DNA of 64,000 nt from Leptonema sp. (in: bacteria) (GCA_046291925.1 JBKBRY010000014.1:4911-68910), one strand, 5' to 3'; positions 25,877 through 63,873 are shown, numbered from the stretch's first letter. A program made the numbers and translations. Notes: generated by a model from the letters alone, not told the origin.

Positions 25877-26595
25877 AAATCCCTCTACGCCACTACTTTT
25901 TTGATTTTTGGTAAACGAATTTTTTTATTATGCTAAAATTTTTTTTATTTGATCTATAAGTTTGTTGTTAAAATTTTTCTTCTTTTACTTTATACATATT
26001 TAGTCTTCTGATAAGGGAAACTCAATTTTTGGGATTGTATTTTTCTCATTTTTATTTACGTGAAAATTTTTAGCTTATCAATCTAGCTTATTTAATTAAA
26101 AAAACTATCAAAGCTAAACCAAATCCTTCACCCTCATGAGTGGTAGTTCCAAAATGGAATATAAAATCAATCAAATCCTTAGATTTCATTGCTTTACAAA
26201 GGCTTTCTTGTATTCTTTTTTTCTTTTTGGGGAAGCATTTTTGTGTTATTGATTACAAAAATTAGAATTCTTTTCTGATCAATATCTACAATCAATCGTA
26301 CAATAAACCTAAATCCTCTATAGCGTTATCAACTCTTTTTTAAAGTTACTTCAGAAGTACAATTATCTTTAAGTAAATAAGTCTTTATAACTTTTTTTTA
26401 GTTCTTTTATACAGGGGTTGTATTCTTCTTTGTTAGCAAAGGAAAAGTATCCTCCTTGAATTAGCTTTTATTGGATTATTTAATCATTCATAAACTGTTT
26501 GAAAAAAAATCTCTTTTACTTCTTTTTTGTTTTTTTGAAAATAATTCTAAAATTTTCTTATCATATAGGATTCTAAATTTAAATTCATTTAGCAT

Positions 26596-26778
26596 TTAAT
26601 ATATTTTTGGATCTTTACCAAGGGAGGAATAAACTTCGAAAATAAAAATAGAGATTTGCATTAACCAAAGTATTTTGCTTTCGTGATTGAGATTTTTAAA
26701 TTCTGTATGTCCATTAAATAGCGAAGGATCCAAGTTTTTAATGATTTTTAATAATTTGGATTTTTCAGAATCTATCAT
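26596..26778 (-). CDS. Small hypothetical protein, co-oriented immediately downstream of nucleotidyltransferase gene
   Basis: 60-aa ORF. Its start is 1 nt after the upstream gene stop. No recognisable motif. Confidence 0.25.
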   Translation of the reverse strand: MIDSEKSKLLKIIKNLDPSLFNGHTEFKNLNHESKILWLMQISIFIFEVYSSLGKDPKIY

Positions 26779-26779
26779 A

Positions 26780-56026: not shown

Positions 56027-57109
56027 ATGAAACCATATCCAACTAAATATTGGCATTATACAGATGATCATAAAATCCAATGTGATGTATGTCCAAGAGG
56101 TTGTAAATTAAAAGAGGGGCAAAGAGGGCTTTGTTATGTCCGTGGTAGAGAAAAAAATCAAATTGTTTTATATACTTATGGAAGATCTAGTGGATTTTGT
56201 ATTGATCCTATCGAAAAAAAACCATTGAATCACTTTTTCCCTGGGAGTTCCGTTTTATCTTTTGGAACAGCTGGTTGCAATTTGATTTGCCAATTTTGCC
56301 AGAATTGGAGTATTAGCAAATCAAAAGAAATGGATACTTTGTCTGATCGAGCCAGCCCAGAAGTTCTTGCAAAAGTTGCAAAAAAATTACAATGCAAAAG
56401 CGTTGCGTTTACTTATAATGATCCAGTGATTTTTATGGAATATGCAATTGATGTTGCTAAGGAATGTCGTAAACTAGGAATTCATACTGTAGCTGTAACA
56501 GCGGGTTATATAAACCCAGAACCTAGAGAGGAATTTTATAGATATATGGATGCTGCAAACGTAGATTTGAAAGGTTTTACAGAAAGCTTTTATAAGAAAT
56601 TTTGTGGAGGTTATTTGCAACCAGTTCTGGATACTCTGGTTTATTTAAAAAAATTTACTAATGTATGGATTGAGATCACAACTTTACTAATACCTGATGA
56701 GAATGATTCAAAACAAGAAATCCAAAAAGAATGCGAGTGGATTCTAAAAAATTTAGGTAGTGATGTCCCATTACATTTTACAGCTTTTCACCCTGATTTT
56801 AAAATGTTAAACAAAAGTTCTACACCTCATACTACATTACTTCGTGCGCGGAAGGTGGCTCAAGAAGTCGGTTTACAATTTGTTTATGTGGGGAATGTAT
56901 ATGATGAAAATGCAGAAAGCACATATTGTCCCAACTGCAAAAGAAAAATTATAGGTAGGAATTGGTATACTTTAAGTGATTATTATATAACCTCGGAAGG
57001 TAAATGTCAATTTTGTGGCTATGTAATTCCAGGTAGGTTTGATAAAACAAAGGGGAACTGGGGAGCAAAAAGAGTACCTATTCATATAGGTAATTTTACA
57101 AATTATTAG
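56027..57109 (+). CDS. AmmeMemoRadiSam-system-type radical SAM enzyme (PFL-activase-like), stand-alone
   Basis: N-terminal Cys cluster CDVCPRGCK...GLCYVRG, then radical SAM CNLICQFCQNW, and a C-terminal CPNC...CQFCG ribbon. Matches the AmmeMemoRadiSam radical SAM architecture. Confidence 0.7.
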   Translation: MKPYPTKYWHYTDDHKIQCDVCPRGCKLKEGQRGLCYVRGREKNQIVLYTYGRSSGFCIDPIEKKPLNHFFPGSSVLSFGTAGCNLICQFCQNWSISKSKEMDTLSDRASPEVLAKVAKKLQCKSVAFTYNDPVIFMEYAIDVAKECRKLGIHTVAVTAGYINPEPREEFYRYMDAANVDLKGFTESFYKKFCGGYLQPVLDTLVYLKKFTNVWIEITTLLIPDENDSKQEIQKECEWILKNLGSDVPLHFTAFHPDFKMLNKSSTPHTTLLRARKVAQEVGLQFVYVGNVYDENAESTYCPNCKRKIIGRNWYTLSDYYITSEGKCQFCGYVIPGRFDKTKGNWGAKRVPIHIGNFTNY

Positions 57110-57158
57110 AATCTTAAGTTCTTCTGGAATAGTTATCCAATTTTTTTCAAAAAGTTTT

Positions 57159-57764
57159 ATGTGTTTAGTTCAACTTTATAAAAATAAGGTGGTTGCTAAA
57201 TTTTGTATATTTCTGAATTTTTTTGGTAAAAAAAAAGCAAATTTGTGTATAAATCATTATATGGAACATTCAGACCAAAAGGAATTCAAAAAAAAGCATG
57301 TTTTTTGTATCAACATAAAATCAGAGTTGATCCTTTCTTTAGATAGGTTATCCAGAGGAGATTGGAGTTCTTTTTTAGTGTATTTATATGAGAAGTATAA
57401 GAATAGGCTTCTTTATTTAAGGAACAGAGGGGGTGGTGTAGGGGTAGCTGAGTATCAGCCGCAGGGAGAGGAGTATAAGAAGGTGAAAATTCGTGGGATG
57501 GATCCTTTAGTATGGCAGAGGTATTGGGAGTTAAGGATGTTGAGTGGGTATTCGATCAGTTATATAATTAGGGTATTTTTGGAGTGGGAGTTATTGGGGA
57601 GAGGTGAAGAGATAAGGACGATATTGCCGGCGGTTGGGATGGACGATGAGAGGTTAGGGTATAGGTATCCGGATGGGTATAGGGTAGCGCATCGTTATAT
57701 AGTGAGGCGTGAGTTGAATGGTCAGGATAGGAGTTTATTTCTTTATTACTGGGATGATGCTTAG
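57159..57764 (+). CDS. Hypothetical Gly/Tyr/Trp/Arg-rich protein encoded by a strongly G-rich, C-depleted segment; start uncertain (ATG 57159 or ATG 57261)
   Basis: Positions 57421-57760 are ~39% G and ~8% C, with no stop codon in this frame and no competing ORF on either strand. Translation ...GGGVGVAEYQPQGEEYKKVKIRGMDPLVWQRYWELRML...GYRYPDGYRVAHRYIVRRELNGQDRSLFLYYWDDA. No recognisable family. Confidence 0.35.
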   Translation: MCLVQLYKNKVVAKFCIFLNFFGKKKANLCINHYMEHSDQKEFKKKHVFCINIKSELILSLDRLSRGDWSSFLVYLYEKYKNRLLYLRNRGGGVGVAEYQPQGEEYKKVKIRGMDPLVWQRYWELRMLSGYSISYIIRVFLEWELLGRGEEIRTILPAVGMDDERLGYRYPDGYRVAHRYIVRRELNGQDRSLFLYYWDDA

Positions 57765-57856
57765 ATTCGTTATAAAACTATTAGATTTAAAATTTCATAA
57801 TCTAACATTTTAATATTGACATATCAATTTATCTTTATATTTTGGTATATTGATAA

Positions 57857-58807
57857 ATGAACACTTTGGAAATTTTTAAGTCATTATCTGACGAAACAAG
57901 GATTCGTATTTTAAATATCCTTTCTTATGAGCCTTTGTGCGTTAACGAAATTATTGAAATTTTGGATATGGGGCAAAGTAGGATTTCAAGACATTTAAAG
58001 ATCTTTTTAGAATCTAAGCTTTTAGTTACTGTGCGTGATGGTGCAAAAGTTTATTATGGTATTTCTCCTCAGTTTCGATTACACCCCATATATGATTCTT
58101 GGAATCAAATACGACAAATTCATACGAACGATACTTTATGGGATTCAGATTTTATGAATCAACTAACAAAGGATACGCAAAGAACATTCCAATTACTAAA
58201 AAAAAGAAAAATTGATTCTATTAATTTTTTTGATAAATTTGGTGACTTACAAGAAAAGGCCCAAAATAAGTTTGTTGATTCTCACTTTTATAGAAATCAG
58301 GTCATAAAATTAGTTCCCAATAATATTTCTATTGCCATTGATGCAGGTTGTGGGACGGGATGGATTTCAATTGAGTTAATTAAAAAAGTTAAAAAATTAA
58401 TTTGTATTGATCAGAGTTCCGCTATATTGCAAAAAGCTAAAGAAAGATTTTCCATCTCTGATTTGAAACGCATACGGTTTATCTCATCTTCTGTAGAACA
58501 AATTCCTTTAAAAAAAGAATTTGCTGATGTAATGGTTTATTCGATGGCTTTGCATCATGTACCTAATATCTCTTTAGCTTTACAAGAAGGTTATAGAATC
58601 CTTAAAAAAAACGGAATTTTGGTTATTGCGGATTTGGAACATCACACCATAGAAGAAATGAGAAAAAATTTTGCAGATTTTTGGCTAGGATTTCATCTTG
58701 AAGATTTAAAAAAAGAGTTAAAAGCATTAAATTTTAAAATTTTAAAAACATTTAAAGGACGAGGGAAAGGTAAGTTGAATTGTATTTTTATAAAAAGTAA
58801 AAAATAG
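57857..58807 (+). CDS. sahR: SahR-like regulator: ArsR-family HTH fused to SAM-dependent methyltransferase-like effector domain
   Basis: ArsR HTH (LSDETRIRILNILSYEPLCVNEIIEILDMGQSRISRHLKIF). Class I MTase motif IDAGCGTGW. Immediately upstream of ahcY-metH. Confidence 0.65.
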   Translation: MNTLEIFKSLSDETRIRILNILSYEPLCVNEIIEILDMGQSRISRHLKIFLESKLLVTVRDGAKVYYGISPQFRLHPIYDSWNQIRQIHTNDTLWDSDFMNQLTKDTQRTFQLLKKRKIDSINFFDKFGDLQEKAQNKFVDSHFYRNQVIKLVPNNISIAIDAGCGTGWISIELIKKVKKLICIDQSSAILQKAKERFSISDLKRIRFISSSVEQIPLKKEFADVMVYSMALHHVPNISLALQEGYRILKKNGILVIADLEHHTIEEMRKNFADFWLGFHLEDLKKELKALNFKILKTFKGRGKGKLNCIFIKSKK

Positions 58808-58837
58808 ATTTAATAATAAAATAAAAAGGAGAAAAAT

Positions 58838-60136
58838 ATGACACAAACTATTTTAAACTATAAAGTAAAAGATATAAGTTTAGCAGAATGGGGTAGAGAA
58901 GAGATTATTCTTGCAGAAAAAGAGATGCCAGGGTTAATGGCTGTTCGCGAAAAATATGGGAAAGATAAACCACTAAAAGGTGCTAGAATTTCAGGTTCTC
59001 TCCATATGACAATACAGACAGCAGTTTTGATCGAAACTTTGATTGAGCTTGGAGCTGAAGTACGGTGGTCTAGTTGTAATATTTTTAGTACTCAAGATCA
59101 TGCTGCTGCAGCAATTGCAGCGAAAGGGATACCTGTCTTTGCTTGGAAGGGTATGACAGAAGAAGAATACTGGTGGGCGATTGAGCAAACTTTACATTTT
59201 GATGGTAAAGGCCCCAATATGTTATTAGATGATGGTGGCGATTTGACTTACTATGTTCACACAAAACATCCAGAACTTTTAGGCGAAATTAAGGGTGTAT
59301 CAGAAGAAACCACAACAGGTGTTAAACAACTTTATAGGATGATGAAAGATGGGAAATTGAAAATTCCTGCCATTAATGTAAATGATTCAGTAACAAAGAG
59401 TAAATTTGATAATATATACGGTTGTAGAGAATCCCTTGTAGATGGAATACGAAGAGGAACAGATTTAATGCTTGCAGGTAAAATTGCTGTTGTATGTGGC
59501 TATGGAGATGTTGGTAAAGGATCTGCACAAAGCTTAAGAAATAGTCAATGTAGAGTAATTGTTACAGAGATTGATCCTATATGTGCTTTACAAGCAGTAA
59601 TGGAAGGTTATACAGTCGATGTGATTGAAAATTGGGTTGATAAAGCAGATATCTTTGTAACAGCAACGGGAAATAAAGACGTTATTCGAATAGAACATAT
59701 GGAAAGAATGAAGGATAATGCAGTTGTCTGCAATATTGGTCATTTTGATGTAGAAATCCAGGTTGATAAATTAAAAAATTATCCAGGCATAAAAAGAACA
59801 ACTATCAAACCACAGGTGGATAAATTCACATTTCCAAATGGAAAAAGTATAATTCTTCTTTCTGAAGGTAGGTTGGTAAATCTTGGGAATGCTACAGGAC
59901 ATCCGAGTTTTGTAATGTCTATGAGTTTTACCAATCAGGTCTTGGCACAAATAGAACTTTATACAAAAAAATACGAAATTGGGGTATATTTGCTACCCAA
60001 ACATTTGGACGAAATGGTTGCTAGATTGCATCTTGAGAAAATTGGTGCTAAGTTAACTACCCTTACAAAAGAACAGTCCGAATACTCTGGAATCCCGATT
60101 GAAGGACCTTTTAAACCAGAACATTATAGATATTGA
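58838..60136 (+). CDS. ahcY: Adenosylhomocysteinase
   Basis: 432 aa with the NAD-binding motif [10 protein letters not shown]. Strong AAGGAG RBS. Confidence 0.9.
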
Positions 60137-60168
60137 TTTTATTAAATAGAACTATTTGAGATATATAA

Positions 60169-63100
60169 ATGAGTACCAAAAAACCACTAATTTGGGATGT
60201 GATAACCAATACACTTTCTCAACGGATAATGGTATTGGATGGGGCAATGGGAACCATGATCCAAAAATACAAATTAACAGAATCTGAATTTCGTGGTGAA
60301 TTTTTTAAAAACCATCCTAAAGAACTAAAAGGAAATAATGATATTCTTAGTATTACCCAACCTCAAATAATTCAATCTATCCATGAGGAATACCTTAAGG
60401 CTGGAGCTGATATTATAGAAACCAATACTTTTAATTCTAACAAAATATCTCAAGAAGAGTACATGTTAGGAGATTATGTATATCAGTTAAACTATACATC
60501 AGCAAAATTGGCGAAAGAAGTTGCCATAAAATATTCTACAGAAGAAAAAAAAAGATATGTTGCTGGAGCCATAGGTCCTACAAGCAAAACTTTATCTATA
60601 TCTCCTGATGTTACTAATCCAGCCTTTCGAGCTGTTAGTTTTTCTCAAATGGTAGAATCTTATTATGAACAAATCAGAGGTTTGGTAGATGGTGGAGTGG
60701 ATATCCTACTTGTTGAAACTATTTTTGATACTTTGAATGCTAAGGCTGCTATTTATTCTATTCAAAAATACTTTGAAGATTTCCATACATCCTTACCAAT
60801 CATGATAAGTGGTACTGTTGTAGATATAAGTGGTAGAACATTATCTGGTCAGACTGTTTCAGCATTTTGGGTTTCTATCTCTCACACTCCCTATTTATTG
60901 TCTGTAGGATTAAACTGTTCTTTGGGTTCAAAACAGATGAGACCTTTTATAGAAGAACTTAGTAAGTTGGCAACTTGTTATGTTAGTTTGTATCCTAATG
61001 CTGGGCTTCCCAATCAATTTGGTGGTTATGACGAAACGCCAGATTTTATGGCTAAGGAAATCAAAGAGTATTCAGAAAATCAATGGCTCAATATAGTTGG
61101 GGGATGCTGTGGTACTACTCCAGAACATATAAAAAAAATGGCTGAATATGTAAAAAATTGTAAACCACGAAAACCTAAAGAAAAAGATTTTGTTCTTCGT
61201 CTGTCTGGCTTAGAAATGTTAGAAATAAGAGAAAATTCAAACTTTATCAATATTGGAGAAAGGGCGAATGTGTCTGGCTCAAAAAAATTTGCAACTCTAA
61301 TTAAGGAAAAAAAATACGAAGAAGCCTTAGAAATTGTAAAAGAACAAATCCAAAACGGAGCAAACATAATTGATGTAAATATGGATGAGGGGATGTTGGA
61401 TTCAGACAAAGAAATGGAGCATTTTTTAAAGTTGATTTCTTCTGAGCCAGAAATTTCAAAAGTTCCCATTATGATTGATTCTTCTAAATGGGAAGTTATA
61501 GAAAAAGGATTACAATGTTTACAAGGTAAAGGAATTGTAAATTCAATATCTTTAAAAGAAGGAGAAGAAAAGTTTATTCAGCAAGCTAAGGAAATTAAAA
61601 AATATGGTGCTGCAGTGGTCGTAATGGCTTTTGATGAACAAGGTCAAGCCGATACCTATGAAAGAAGAATTTCCGTTTGTGAGCGAGCTTATAAGATTTT
61701 GTTAGAAAAAGTTGGTTTTTCTCCTGAAGATATCGTTTTTGATCCTAACATTTTTGCGTTGGCAACAGGAATAGAAGAACATAACCGTTATGCATTGGAT
61801 TTTATTAATGCAACAAGATGGATCAAAAAAAATCTACCTTATGCAAAAGTAAGTGGTGGTGTTTCGAATTTGTCTTTTTCTTTTCGAGGAAACGAACCAG
61901 TTCGTAGAGCTATGCATTCTGTTTTTTTGTATTATGCCATTCAAGCAGGTATGGATATGGGTATTGTGAATGCTGGACAACTGGATGTTTATGACCAAAT
62001 TCCATTAGAGCTAAGAAATATCGTAGAAGATGTGATTTTAAATAAACGAGTTGATGCAACAGAAAAATTATTAGAAATAGCCCAAAAATACAAAGGTGAA
62101 AATAAACAAGAATCAATCCAAGAAGAATGGCGTAAGTATTCAATAGAAGAAAGGTTAAAAATTTCCTTAGTTCAAGGTATAGATAAATATATAGAACAGG
62201 ATATATTAGAAGCAGTTAATGATAAAGAAAAATATCCAGAAACTCTTAAAATCATTGAAGGACCTTTAATGGAAGGAATGAACATAGTAGGTGATTTATT
62301 TGGTTCCGGCAAAATGTTTTTACCTCAAGTCGTGAAAAGTGCCAGGGTGATGAAAAAAGCAGTATCTGTTTTAATACCTTTTATAGAACAAGAAAAAGCG
62401 AATTCTGGAAAAGAACAAGAAAAAAAAGCAAAAGTTCTATTAGCAACTGTTAAAGGAGATGTTCATGATATTGGAAAAAATATAGTAGGTGTTGTTCTTG
62501 CATGTAATAATTATGAGATTATTGATTTAGGTGTAATGGTACCAAAAGAAAAAATTATAAAAACAGCTCTTGAAATCAGTGTAGATGTAATAGGACTTTC
62601 GGGACTCATTACTCCTTCCTTAGATGAAATGGTAGAAGTTGCTAAAGAAATGGAAAGAGAAAAAATGAACATTCCTCTTTTAATAGGTGGTGCTACTACA
62701 AGCGAGGTACATACAGCAGTAAAAATTGAACCAGAATATTCAAACGGTGTAATCCACGTCCTGGATGCCTCTAGGTGTGTTCCAGTTATGAATCAATTAA
62801 CAAATAAAGAAACTGGGAATCAATTTATACAAGAAGTTAAAAAGAAATACCAAGAAATACGAAATCGCTTTCATCAACATAGTCAAAAAGAATATCTATC
62901 ATTGGAAGAAGCAAGAAAAAATAGAATCAAAATCGATTGGGGAGATTACATACCACCAAAACCCAACTTTTTAGGGATTCAGGAAATTAGACCTTCTTTA
63001 GATACTTTAATCAATTACATTGATTGGACACCCTTCTTCCTTACATGGGAAATGAAGAAAAAGTTTCCCGAAATATTAAGCGATCCTAAATTAGGAAAGG

Positions 63101-63873
63101 AAGCAAAAAAATTATATGATGATGCAATACAATTTTTAGAAGAGATTTCAAAAAAAGAATATACTCTACCAATAGGTGTTTTTGGAATTTTTAGGGCGAA
63201 TACAAATCCTGAAAATTTTGACGACATTATCGTTTATAAAGATCATTCAAGAAAAGAAACCTTGGCAACATTTCATGGTTTAAGGCAACAGACAAAAAAA
63301 AGAGAAGATGAGTATAATAAAAATATTTCAGATTTTATTGCTCCCTATGGCATAAAAGATGATTATATAGGTGCATTTGCAGTAACTAGTGGAGAAGGTA
63401 TTTTAGAAATTGCGAATTATTACGAAAAACATTTAGATGATTATAAAAGTTTGATGTTTAAATCATTAGGCGATAGATTGGCAGAAGCTTTTGCAGAGTT
63501 TCTACATCAACAAGTAAGAAAATACTATTGGGGCTATGCACCAGCAGAAAATTTTTCCAACGAGGAATTAATAAATGAATCTTATATAGGAATTAGACCT
63601 GCACCTGGATATCCTTCTCAGCCGGATCATACAGAAAAATTAATTTTATTTGAACTTTTAGAAGTTTCTAAAAGAACCCCTATTGTACTTACAGAAAATC
63701 TTGCAATGTATCCACCTTCTTCTGTATGTGGTTTATACTTTTCTCATCCCGAATCTAAATATTTTAACTTAGGAAAAATTTATCAAGATCAAGTAGAGGA
63801 CTATGCAAAACGAAAAGGAATGACAATAGAAGAAATAGAAAAATGGCTCTCTTACTATTTAGCTTATAAGTGA
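60169..63873 (+). CDS. metH: Cobalamin-dependent methionine synthase
   Basis: 1234 aa with Hcy-binding, pterin-binding, B12-binding (DVHDIGKN) and AdoMet-activation domains. Confidence 0.9.

What the first reader, a model, noticed from the sequence alone, without database searches (positions are those of the whole stretch)
57159..57764. Stop-free ORF in a strongly G-rich, C-depleted ~360-bp stretch encoding a Gly/Tyr/Trp/Arg-rich product
Over 57421-57760 the plus strand is about 39% G and only about 8% C. That gives GC near 47% and an extreme G>C skew in a window whose genes otherwise run about 30% GC with near-balanced G and C. An A/G/T-rich sequence should be full of TAA/TAG/TGA stops. Despite that, one frame is open for about 120 codons, and no alternative ORF exists on either strand. 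This argues for a real coding sequence under unusual constraint. The product is rich in Gly, Tyr, Trp, Arg and Val (...LVWQRYWELRML...LGYRYPDGYRVAHRYIVRRE...LFLYYWDDA), and I cannot assign it to any family. It also has a different composition from its own AT-rich N-terminal part, if translation begins at 57159. Possible explanations are a laterally acquired or recently created gene, a RiPP-like or aromatic-rich substrate protein for the upstream radical SAM enzyme, or a structured or G-quadruplex-prone RNA rather than a protein.
Basis: seen in the sequence. Interest (0 to 1): 0.8.

Follow-up and report, generated by a model that had tools for sequence, protein, structure and literature searches.

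The report
Gene with one-strand A-to-G hypermutation
This is a real gene for a small DNA-binding-type protein in a Leptospira relative, and its last two-thirds has had most free adenines on the coding strand replaced by guanines, a gene-limited, one-strand pattern that recurs in this gene family and has no established cause in bacteria.

Summary
On the plus strand, 57421-57760 is 38.5% G and 7.9% C, the strongest skew in the 64-kb window. Third-codon G is 45-51% in the tract, against 6-16% in all 52 other ORFs.

The ORF is a real gene, but it starts at ATG 57261 (167 aa), not 57159. It belongs to a small Leptospiraceae paralog family, a divergent branch of Pfam DUF1564. The predicted fold is a tandem ribbon-helix-helix, closest to TraY and single-chain Arc.

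The syntenic ortholog in another MAG and the paralogs in the same MAG are ordinary and A-rich. Against the ortholog, the tract has 63 A-to-G changes and 7 G-to-A. Third-position T and C are unchanged, so only the coding strand is affected. Synonymous A sites are hit more than nonsynonymous ones, and the core motif is intact, so the gene has stayed under purifying selection.

The tract ramps up from about 57320, plateaus from 57408 and stops at the stop codon. Similar tracts occur in three other family members. Those members appear as identical units in two genomic contexts, and an independent assembly breaks on both sides of this gene.

Tests for a RiPP substrate, a structured RNA, a G-quadruplex, lateral acquisition and an artefact were negative. 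The mechanism is not settled.

The parts
57261..57764 (+). Coding sequence of 167 aa plus a TAG stop. It is a DUF1564-like protein with a predicted tandem ribbon-helix-helix fold and a C-terminal beta-hairpin.
57159..57260 (+). Upstream leader, wrongly included as a 34-aa N-terminal extension in the 201-aa gene call. It is ordinary AT-rich sequence.
   Evidence: No homologue has this extension. Composition is normal, with G 13% over 57110-57260.
57320..57407 (+). Ramp. The excess of G over A rises from about +0.1 to +0.3 relative to normal paralogs.
   Evidence: Sliding G/(A+G) along the codon alignment.
57408..57730 (+). Plateau of the A-to-G tract. Third-position G is 45-51%. Purine-ending codons after a non-T base are 40 G to 5 A.
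57731..57764 (+). Conserved C-terminal YWDD codons and the stop codon. The 3' limit of the tract falls here, and the intergenic DNA that follows is only 7% G.
   Evidence: L006 shows the same geometry.
57771..57815 (.). AT-rich inverted repeat with 17-nt arms, 82% complementary, directly after the stop codon. It may be a terminator or an operator. Any link to the tract is unproven.
   Evidence: I1. No canonical intrinsic terminator was found.
57409..57417 (+). Left copy of the 9-nt direct repeat TTCTTTATT that brackets the plateau. This may be chance.
   Evidence: D1.
57739..57747 (+). Right copy of the same 9-nt direct repeat, 330 nt downstream of the left copy.
   Evidence: D1.
56027..57109 (+). 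Upstream neighbour, an AmmeMemoRadiSam-type radical SAM enzyme of ordinary composition. It serves as the synteny anchor.
   Evidence: TIGR04337 at 625.9 bits. It is 78% identical to the L004 neighbour.
57857..58807 (+). Downstream neighbour, an ArsR-HTH/SAM-methyltransferase fusion, followed by ahcY and metH. Composition is ordinary.

Best explanation
SHOWN. The ORF is an intact, selectively maintained gene (57261-57764) of a Leptospiraceae-restricted paralog family related to DUF1564, and it encodes a small tandem ribbon-helix-helix (TraY/Arc-like) protein. Its G-rich composition comes from directional replacement of adenines by guanines on the coding strand only. The replacement ramps up about 60 nt into the gene, reaches a plateau from codon 50 or so, and ends at the stop codon. 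At purine-ending codons preceded by a non-T base, 40 of 45 now end in G. Nonsynonymous sites are hit less often, and the conserved core of the protein is untouched.

INFERRED. This is the footprint of a local, strand-asymmetric, adenine-targeted mutational process that acted repeatedly, with purifying selection between rounds. A single burst would have hit the core.

MOST LIKELY MECHANISM (speculative, roughly 0.3 of the total). The sense transcript is reverse-transcribed from its 3' end by an enzyme that puts C opposite template A, as DGR reverse transcriptases mostly do in vivo. The cDNA then replaces the 3' part of the gene by homology. This resembles DGR retrohoming or organellar retroprocessing, but is templated by the gene's own transcript, so the changes accumulate. 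This model would explain the adenine and strand specificity, the anchoring at the 3' end with a 5' ramp, the recurrence within one family, and the finding that G-rich copies occur as discrete gene-sized units in more than one context.
For: Homology and synteny. Flanking genes are 73-78% identical to those in L004, while this gene is 46% identical.

Directionality: against the syntenic ortholog, the 3' part shows 63 A-to-G and 7 G-to-A changes (binomial p = 2e-12). A control pair of normal paralogs shows 15 and 14.

Strand specificity: between the ortholog L008 and this gene, third-position A falls from 46% to 17% and G rises from 14% to 46%, while T (36% to 34%) and C (4% to 3%) do not move. 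T-to-C at synonymous sites is 2 of 28.

Selection filter: synonymous A sites are 67-74% converted and nonsynonymous sites 39-42% (p = 0.018 and 0.0006). Controls show 18-21% and 9-10%. The core GYSISYIIRVFLEWE is kept, with synonymous A-to-G changes inside it.

Geometry: ramp and plateau, a sharp stop at the ORF end, and the same layout in L006.

Recurrence and specificity: third-position G is 39-41% in P0003, 30-34% in P0033 and 32-37% in part of P0038, against 9-17% in six normal paralogs. In about 170 kb scanned, tracts with G >= 30% and C <= 12% fall only in family genes, with one borderline exception.

Independence of the WIN and P0003 events: the orthologous counterparts are reciprocally normal, and the transversion distances show no shared origin.

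Multi-context units and assembly breaks.

The DGR reverse transcriptase in cells mostly misincorporates C opposite template A, which reads as A-to-G: PMC12875486.
Against: No reverse transcriptase motif occurs in any ORF of at least 100 aa in the window. None of the roughly 20 retrieved loci lists an RT domain.

No A-rich template copy of the tract exists in the 64 kb, even when A and G are scored as equal.

The excess over background is purely A-to-G, with no excess A-to-T or A-to-C, which a DGR-type enzyme should also produce.

Sparing of A after T is strong here (11 A/7 G after T, 5 A/40 G after other bases; p = 1e-4) but is not reproduced in the other three G-rich genes, so there is no shared enzyme signature.

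The sequences are about 45-50% identical at the protein level, so ancestral states are inferred only coarsely.

Selection for a G-rich coding strand, as is argued for Borrelia vls, would give much the same static picture.

The tract in this window rests on a single assembly.
Confidence: 0.5

Rival explanations
1. Selection for a G-rich, C-poor coding strand, not a special mutational process. In the vls antigenic-variation cassettes of Lyme Borrelia, such a strand is kept for a nucleic-acid-level function, for example promoting recombination or gene conversion among paralogs, R-loop formation, resistance of the sense RNA to Rho or RNases, or making the antisense RNA a strong Rho substrate.
For: Composition nearly matches vls cassettes in another AT-rich spirochete. 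Vls has G+C 49.1% and coding-strand GC skew 0.52 in a 28.6% GC genome (PMC11499132). This tract has G+C 46% and skew 0.66 in a 30% GC window. The tract is confined to the ORF and is close to saturation at free synonymous sites. The family is multi-copy, and G-rich members show up in more than one context, which would fit recombination activity.
Against: There is no array of silent cassettes and no second copy of the tract in the window. G-runs, G4 motifs and GGA motifs occur at the level expected from composition. RNA structure is no better than shuffles. Only one paralog per genome carries the trait, and a different paralog carries it in each genome, which is odd for a conserved function. The predicted product is a cytoplasmic DNA-binding-type protein, not a surface antigen.
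Confidence: 0.22
2. Transcription-associated damage. The non-template (coding) strand is exposed as single-stranded DNA in R-loops, and its adenines are deaminated to hypoxanthine, spontaneously or by an enzyme. Hypoxanthine is read as G. A G-rich transcript stabilises R-loops, so the process reinforces itself.
For: Changes are limited to the coding, non-template strand. C-to-T also exceeds T-to-C, 12 to 3, as expected for deamination of one strand. The tract lies inside one transcription unit.
Against: Spontaneous deamination strongly favours cytosine (established chemistry), yet C is only mildly reduced. The first roughly 60-150 nt of the gene and the 3' untranslated stretch up to the hairpin are spared. 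Paralogs with similar upstream regions are unaffected. No natural bacterial DNA adenine deaminase of this kind is known to me.
Confidence: 0.12
3. Footprint of passage through a single-stranded DNA or RNA stage of a mobile gene cassette, for example hairpin-bounded elements mobilised in trans. One strand is damaged, or is edited by a host defence deaminase. The edited copy then converts the resident gene.
For: The G-rich P0033 gene lies in a 1101-bp unit that is 99.5% identical in two contexts. The unit ends in a palindrome whose loop is inverted between the two loci, and a GAATAACAATTC motif occurs at both junctions. The G-rich P0003 gene is a 547-bp unit that is 100% identical in two contexts. 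The Logan assembly breaks on both sides of this gene, and no shared 21- or 31-mers explain the breaks.
Against: This gene is at the ancestral syntenic position. No transposase or integrase lies nearby. The family has no homologues in the plasmid or phage collections. The two-context observations come from metagenome assemblies and could reflect different strains or chimeras.
Confidence: 0.1
4. Sequencing or assembly artefact, or a chimeric join with DNA from another organism.
For: The tract in this window is present in only one assembly, and an independent assembly of the same run does not bridge it.
Against: The changes respect the reading frame, are significantly enriched at synonymous sites and leave every conserved residue intact. 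No normal genome has third positions at 46% G with 3% C, so a foreign ortholog cannot explain it. The same kind of tract is seen in other projects and assemblers, ENA, Logan and two GCA metagenomes.
Confidence: 0.04

Closest known systems
Pfam DUF1564 (PF07600), a family of small Leptospira hypothetical proteins
   Same: Similar length (about 165 aa). 19 of 35 family members match the model at E <= 0.01, best 3.6e-8. The lineage is Leptospiraceae, and each genome carries many paralogs.
   Different: The window protein itself scores 13 bits, below the 25-bit gathering score. The family profile reaches only 43 clusters among 1.84 billion representatives, so this is a divergent side branch. No function is known for DUF1564, and no paper in the library mentions it.
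Single-chain tandem ribbon-helix-helix DNA-binding proteins (F-plasmid TraY, single-chain Arc, AvtR, VirC2)
   Different: Sequence identity is only 10-14% and Foldseek E-values are only 0.03. There is an extra C-terminal beta-hairpin. No relaxase or conjugation genes are nearby, and DNA binding has not been tested.
Diversity-generating retroelement (DGR) variable regions
   Same: Adenine-specific changes on the coding strand, confined to the 3' end of a target gene, with an inverted repeat just downstream. In cells the DGR reverse transcriptase mostly produces A-to-G (PMC12875486).
   Different: No reverse transcriptase, Avd or template repeat was found. The tract is about 330-440 nt rather than about 100-150 nt (size from memory). 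Changes are concentrated at third codon positions instead of AAC/AAT codons. There is no excess A-to-T or A-to-C. The target is not a ligand-binding fold.
vls antigenic-variation cassettes of Lyme-disease Borrelia
   Same: A spirochete with an AT-rich genome carries an island of about 46-50% G+C with a strong G-over-C skew on the coding strand and G-rich codons, within a multi-copy sequence family (PMC11499132).
   Different: There is no cassette array, no expression-site architecture and no lipoprotein. Only part of one gene is affected, and a different paralog is affected in each genome.
ADAR-type biased hypermutation of RNA virus genomes
   Same: Clusters of A-to-G changes on one strand.
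   Different: The genome is bacterial DNA. The 5'-neighbour effect here (A and G above C above T) is opposite to the ADAR preference for a 5' U or A (from memory). An RNA-to-DNA step would still be needed.

Membership tests
DUF1564 (PF07600) | Match to the Pfam HMM at or above the gathering score of 25 bits | tested here: not met
   The window protein scores 13.0 bits, E = 0.084. The relatives P0007 (24.9 bits) and P0006 (19.7 bits) are also just below the cut-off.
DUF1564 (PF07600) | Relatives of the protein connect it transitively to the family | tested here: met
   19 of 35 aligned family members hit PF07600 at E <= 0.01, best 3.6e-8. P0007 carries a precomputed PF07600 label.
Ribbon-helix-helix superfamily (tandem, single-chain) | Two consecutive strand-helix-helix units forming a pseudo-dimer | tested here: met
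Ribbon-helix-helix superfamily (tandem, single-chain) | Sequence-specific DNA binding through the beta-ribbon | not testable with these tools
   Needs EMSA or ChIP.
DGR target gene (variable region) | A reverse transcriptase (and usually Avd) encoded nearby | tested here: not met
   No Y[AVIMCL]DD motif occurs in any ORF of at least 100 aa in the 64 kb. No RVT domain appears among the called genes of the retrieved loci. The rest of the genome was not searched.
DGR target gene (variable region) | A template repeat identical to the variable region except at adenines | tested here: not met
   Local alignment with A and G scored as equal finds nothing above shuffled controls in the window. The same-genome paralog L001 differs by 20% transversions.
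DGR target gene (variable region) | Substitutions restricted to adenine positions, at the 3' end of the ORF | tested here: inconclusive
   A-to-G dominates (63 to 7) and the tract abuts the stop codon. However, the comparison is with diverged homologues, not with a template.
RiPP precursor / radical SAM substrate | Short precursor peptide genetically dedicated to its maturase | tested here: not met
   The product is a folded 167-aa protein. Paralogs lie next to unrelated genes. The neighbour is an AmmeMemoRadiSam-type enzyme, not a RiPP maturase family.
Structured RNA / G-quadruplex element | Folding energy better than shuffles, a match to a covariance model, or G4 motifs above expectation | tested here: not met
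   The z-score is +0.48. There are 0 canonical G4 motifs, and G3+ runs number 14 against 11.6 +/- 2.3 expected. There is no Rfam hit at gathering score, and only chance-level hits at E <= 10.
vls-like gene-conversion system | Contiguous array of silent cassettes homologous to the expressed copy | tested here: not met
   No second copy of the tract is present in the window, and there are no tandem repeats.
vls-like gene-conversion system | High G+C and strong coding-strand GC skew in an AT-rich genome | tested here: met
   G+C is 46% and skew is 0.66, against 30% and 0.07 for the window. Vls values are 49.1% and 0.52.

The most novel reading that the evidence does not exclude
Leptospiraceae carry an undescribed targeted adenine-mutagenesis system. 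It could be a self-templated, reverse-transcriptase-driven retro-conversion, or a DNA/RNA adenine deaminase acting on a single-stranded intermediate. It repeatedly rewrites the 3' portions of members of one paralogous ribbon-helix-helix gene family on the coding strand only. It is still active, which would explain the gene-sized identical units seen in different contexts and the assembly break around this gene.
Probability: 0.2. Interest if true: 0.85.

Novelty: new variant of a known kind. Interest (0 to 1): 0.62.

Why it matters
Apart from DGRs and repeat-based contingency loci, bacteria are not known to aim mutation at individual genes. Here a gene-limited, strand-specific A-to-G tract recurs independently in one protein family, and neither a reverse transcriptase nor a template is visible nearby. 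Three outcomes are possible:
- a new route of targeted diversification, which would be of interest for natural A-to-G editing enzymes;
- a second spirochete example of the unexplained 'G-rich coding strand' signature known from the Borrelia vls locus;
- a marker of RNA- or ssDNA-mediated gene copying in bacteria.

Existing read data and complete genomes can test these. The analysis also gives the uncharacterised DUF1564-like proteins a first structural assignment as tandem ribbon-helix-helix, probably DNA-binding, proteins.

Tried and rejected
- Rfam at E <= 10 around the locus, and at gathering score over the whole window, gave only chance-level hits or none. No tRNA genes were found.
- No tandem repeats were found.
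- RNA folding was no better than shuffles, and G4, G-run and GGA (CsrA-type) motif counts were at the level expected from composition.
- A search for a DGR template with A and G scored as equal found nothing above shuffled controls. A reverse-transcriptase motif scan of all window ORFs was negative.
- Pfam and NCBIfam on the 201-aa ORF gave only a sub-threshold FliS hit in the spurious or N-terminal part. A PDB sequence search gave nothing significant.
- The JGI metagenome scan found no relatives, and the plasmid and phage collections had no match. The afdb50 fold library was unavailable.
- Exact-protein look-ups of the 201-aa and 167-aa versions were not on record.
- P0048 looked G-shifted at the protein level but comes from a 44% GC genome with balanced G and C, so it is not an example.
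- Sparing of A after T as a shared enzyme signature: significant in this gene only.
- Stop-codon identity (TAG or TGA against TAA) as a marker of how far the tract extends: uninformative, because normal paralogs vary too.
- The 5 of 6 A/G differences between the two P0033 copies as proof of an ongoing A-to-G process: rejected, because with G four times as common as C in those flanks, ordinary G-to-A decay predicts the same.
- The literature library holds nothing on DUF1564, on A-to-G hypermutation in bacterial chromosomes, or on DGRs acting on such genes in Leptospira.

Full report
1. THE OBSERVATION

The plus strand of 57421-57760 is 25.6% A, 7.9% C, 38.5% G and 27.9% T. The window as a whole is 34.0% A, 13.8% C, 15.9% G and 36.3% T. 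In 340-nt windows the GC skew peaks at 0.66-0.67. All 15 most-skewed windows in the 64 kb fall at 57321-57461, against a mean of 0.07 and sd of 0.155.

One frame stays open for 120 codons through the tract, which only 0.05% of shuffles reach. All other frames carry stops. Among 53 ORFs of at least 100 aa in the window, third-position G is 0.06-0.16 for 52 of them and 0.36 for this one, z = 11. The anomaly is real and large.

2. WHAT THE ORF IS

A protein search found seven relatives. Two are paralogs from the same MAG (Leptonema sp., locus tags ACK4UJ_11190 and _00520), with E-values down to 1e-49. All of them start at the position of ATG 57261 (MEHSDQ...). The gene is therefore 57261-57764 (167 aa), and the 201-aa call from 57159 carries a spurious extension.

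P0004 is the syntenic ortholog in another MAG. It has the same Bac_transf, ABC ATPase, NUDIX and radical SAM neighbours. Those neighbours are 73-78% identical between the two genomes, but this gene is only 46% identical.

The family is narrow, with 43 clusters among 1.84 billion representatives. Each genome has many copies: at least 8 loci in MAG CALFVU01 and at least 8 ACK4UJ proteins. The window protein is below threshold for Pfam DUF1564 (13 bits against 25). However, 19 of 35 family members hit that model, with a best E-value of 3.6e-8.

3. WHERE THE COMPOSITION COMES FROM

The homologs have ordinary, A-rich composition: A 41-44% and G 14-17% in the same region. A codon alignment shows AAA replaced by GGG or AGG, GAA by GAG, CAA by CAG, AGA by AGG and ATA by ATG.

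Against the ortholog, the 3' part has 63 A-to-G changes and 7 G-to-A (binomial p = 2e-12). A control pair of normal paralogs has 15 and 14.

At third codon positions A drops from 46% to 17% and G rises from 14% to 46%. T (36 to 34%) and C (4 to 3%) do not change. Synonymous T-to-C is only 2 of 28. The change is thus confined to adenines of the coding strand.

Synonymous A sites are converted in 67-74% of cases and nonsynonymous A sites in 39-42% (p = 0.018 and 0.0006). Controls show 18-21% and 9-10%. The most conserved stretch, GYSISYIIRVFLEWE, is intact and has A-to-G changes only at silent positions. A single burst at this intensity would almost certainly have hit the roughly 14 replacement-sensitive adenines of that core. 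The pattern therefore points to repeated or continuous input with selection in between.

Within the tract, purine-ending codons preceded by a non-T base are 40 G to 5 A, where the background is 137 G to 696 A. Those preceded by T are 7 G to 11 A. This neighbour effect is not seen in the other G-rich family members, so I do not treat it as an enzyme signature.

4. GEOMETRY

Relative to normal paralogs, the excess of G over A is near zero at the start of the gene and rises from about 57320. It reaches a plateau from about 57408 (codon 50), dips over the constrained core and continues to the last variable codons.

The 92-nt intergenic region after the stop codon is 7% G, and none of its A-runs are converted. 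An AT-rich inverted repeat (57771-57815) follows the stop codon directly. A 9-nt direct repeat, TTCTTTATT, brackets the plateau. Both may be coincidental.

5. RECURRENCE

P0003 (L002/L006) lies in the other MAG and at a different locus. It shows the same thing: a normal first third (third-position G 9%), then 39-41% G through to its stop codon, and a normal flank.

Transversion distances show that its closest relative is the normal P0002 from the window's MAG. They also show that the window tract shares no special ancestry with the P0003 tract. The two events are therefore independent and reciprocal: each genome has one G-rich paralog, and that paralog's counterpart in the other genome is normal.

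P0033 has third-position G of 30-34% throughout, and P0038 has a roughly 90-nt stretch at 45% G. Both are further cases in AT-rich backgrounds. P0048 is not a case, because it comes from a 44% GC genome.

In about 170 kb of window plus retrieved loci, stretches with G >= 30% and C <= 12% occur only in family genes, with one borderline exception. One paralog (L009/L012) shows a milder mirror image, with third-position C of 33-37% in its 5' third.

6. CONTEXT ODDITIES LINKED TO THE G-RICH COPIES

An independent Logan assembly of run SRR31360862 carries the normal paralogs on 19.6- and 83-kb contigs. At this gene it breaks on both sides. One contig ends at 57243 and another starts at 57733, both 100% identical to the window. 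No 21- or 31-mer of the gene region is shared with the known paralogs or with the rest of the window.

The P0003 gene is a 547-bp unit, running from 35 nt before the ATG to 5 nt after the stop. It is 100% identical in two different flanking contexts.

The P0033 gene lies in a 1101-bp unit that is 99.5% identical in two contexts. The unit ends in a palindrome whose loop is inverted between the two loci.

Normal paralogs were each seen in one context only. These are metagenome assemblies, so different strains or chimeras cannot be excluded. Still, the association suggests that G-rich copies are heterogeneous, multi-copy or mobile.

7. EXPLANATIONS

The sequence shows an intact family gene whose composition is due to coding-strand A-to-G replacement under purifying selection.

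For the cause, I favour a local, strand-asymmetric, adenine-targeted mutational process, at about 0.5 overall. Within that, I favour repeated 3'-anchored retro-conversion by a reverse transcriptase that inserts C opposite template A. The Bordetella DGR enzyme does this predominantly in vivo: 59% of its errors are of this type, and G is disfavoured in most contexts (PMC12875486). This model accounts for:
- the adenine and strand specificity;
- the stop at the 3' end of the ORF;
- the 5' ramp;
- the recurrence in one family;
- the gene-sized units.

Against it, no reverse transcriptase or template repeat is visible in the window or the retrieved loci, and there is no excess of A-to-T or A-to-C.

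The main rival is selection for a G-rich coding strand, as is argued for the Borrelia vls cassettes. Their composition (49% G+C, skew 0.52, in a 28.6% GC genome; PMC11499132) is strikingly close to this tract. However, there is no cassette array and no enrichment of G-runs, and the trait sits in a different paralog in each genome.

The other rivals are less likely:
- R-loop-linked deamination of the non-template strand fits the strand and the modest C-to-T excess, but not the spared 5' end and 3' UTR, nor the chemistry.
- A footprint from a single-stranded mobile-element intermediate fits the multi-context units, but not the syntenic position of this gene.
- An artefact is unlikely given the codon-aware pattern and its presence in several unrelated datasets.

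A real coding sequence with an unusual composition: supported.

The other proposals are each contradicted by the tests above: unassignable protein, lateral or de novo origin, RiPP substrate of the neighbouring radical SAM enzyme (which is AmmeMemoRadiSam-type), and structured or G4 RNA.

9. VERDICT

The protein is a new, divergent member of a known family of unknown function, and it now has a fold assignment. The compositional signature is the interesting part: a recurrent, gene-limited, strand-specific A-to-G tract. It resembles DGR mutagenesis and vls composition without meeting the defining features of either. I rate it a new variant of a known kind, with moderately high interest. Read mapping and whole-genome scans would decide the question.

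Noticed in passing
window 57243 / 57733 (L018 end, L019 start): An independent Logan assembly of run SRR31360862 stops at 57243 and resumes at 57733, both sides 100% identical to the window. Exactly this gene is left unbridged, although normal paralogs from the same run assemble into 19.6- and 83-kb contigs. No shared 21- or 31-mers explain the break.
   Followed up: partly
L016 2692-3792 and L017 2692-3792: A 1101-bp unit carrying the G-rich P0033 gene is 99.5% identical in two unrelated contexts. In one it lies after RNase HII, and in the other between a CofH-like radical SAM gene and a metalloenzyme gene. The unit ends in the palindrome TCTATCAATAAGAAT-AACA-ATTCTTATTGATAGA, whose loop is inverted between the loci. 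A GAATAACAATTC motif is also present at the left junction and again near L016 3895.
   Followed up: partly
L002 3966-4512 and L003 660-1206: The G-rich P0003 gene is a 547-bp block that is 100% identical in two different flanking contexts (ENA contig and Logan contig). The block starts with AGAAAAAAA and ends with GAGAAAA, roughly the extent of a transcript.
   Followed up: partly
L012 3050-3165 / L009 1-160: One paralog shows a milder mirror image in its 5' third. Third-position C is 33-37% and G 0-11%, against a background C of about 8-13%. This is a T-to-C shift on the coding strand, ending near the same codon 55 or so where the G-rich tracts begin.
   Followed up: partly
L009, L010, L012, L013 (contig ends in MAG CALFVU01): Several family copies sit at contig ends and share identical or near-identical gene fragments (L012/L009 100% over 141 nt, L009/L010 99.6% over 272 nt, L012/L013 94% over 274 nt). 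Some family members are therefore recent duplicates that break assemblies.
   Followed up: no
window 56027-57109: An AmmeMemoRadiSam-type radical SAM gene (TIGR04337, 626 bits) stands without adjacent AMMECR1-like or Memo-like partner genes. The same arrangement is seen in the other MAG.
   Followed up: no
window 57857-63873: A methyl-cycle cluster lies directly downstream: an ArsR-HTH fused to a SAM-dependent methyltransferase, then S-adenosylhomocysteine hydrolase, then B12-dependent methionine synthase. A sub-threshold SAM-V riboswitch hit (21.5 bits against a gathering score of 41, E = 3.5) lies at 58759-58803, just before ahcY. It is probably chance.
   Followed up: no
window, whole: Plus-strand genes have third-position G above C, and minus-strand genes have C above G. 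The window's plus strand therefore behaves as the replication leading strand, and the G-rich gene is co-oriented with replication.
   Followed up: no
window 25877-26779: A stretch of about 900 nt has no ORF of at least 100 aa, no tRNA and no Rfam match. Its composition is ordinary.
   Followed up: no
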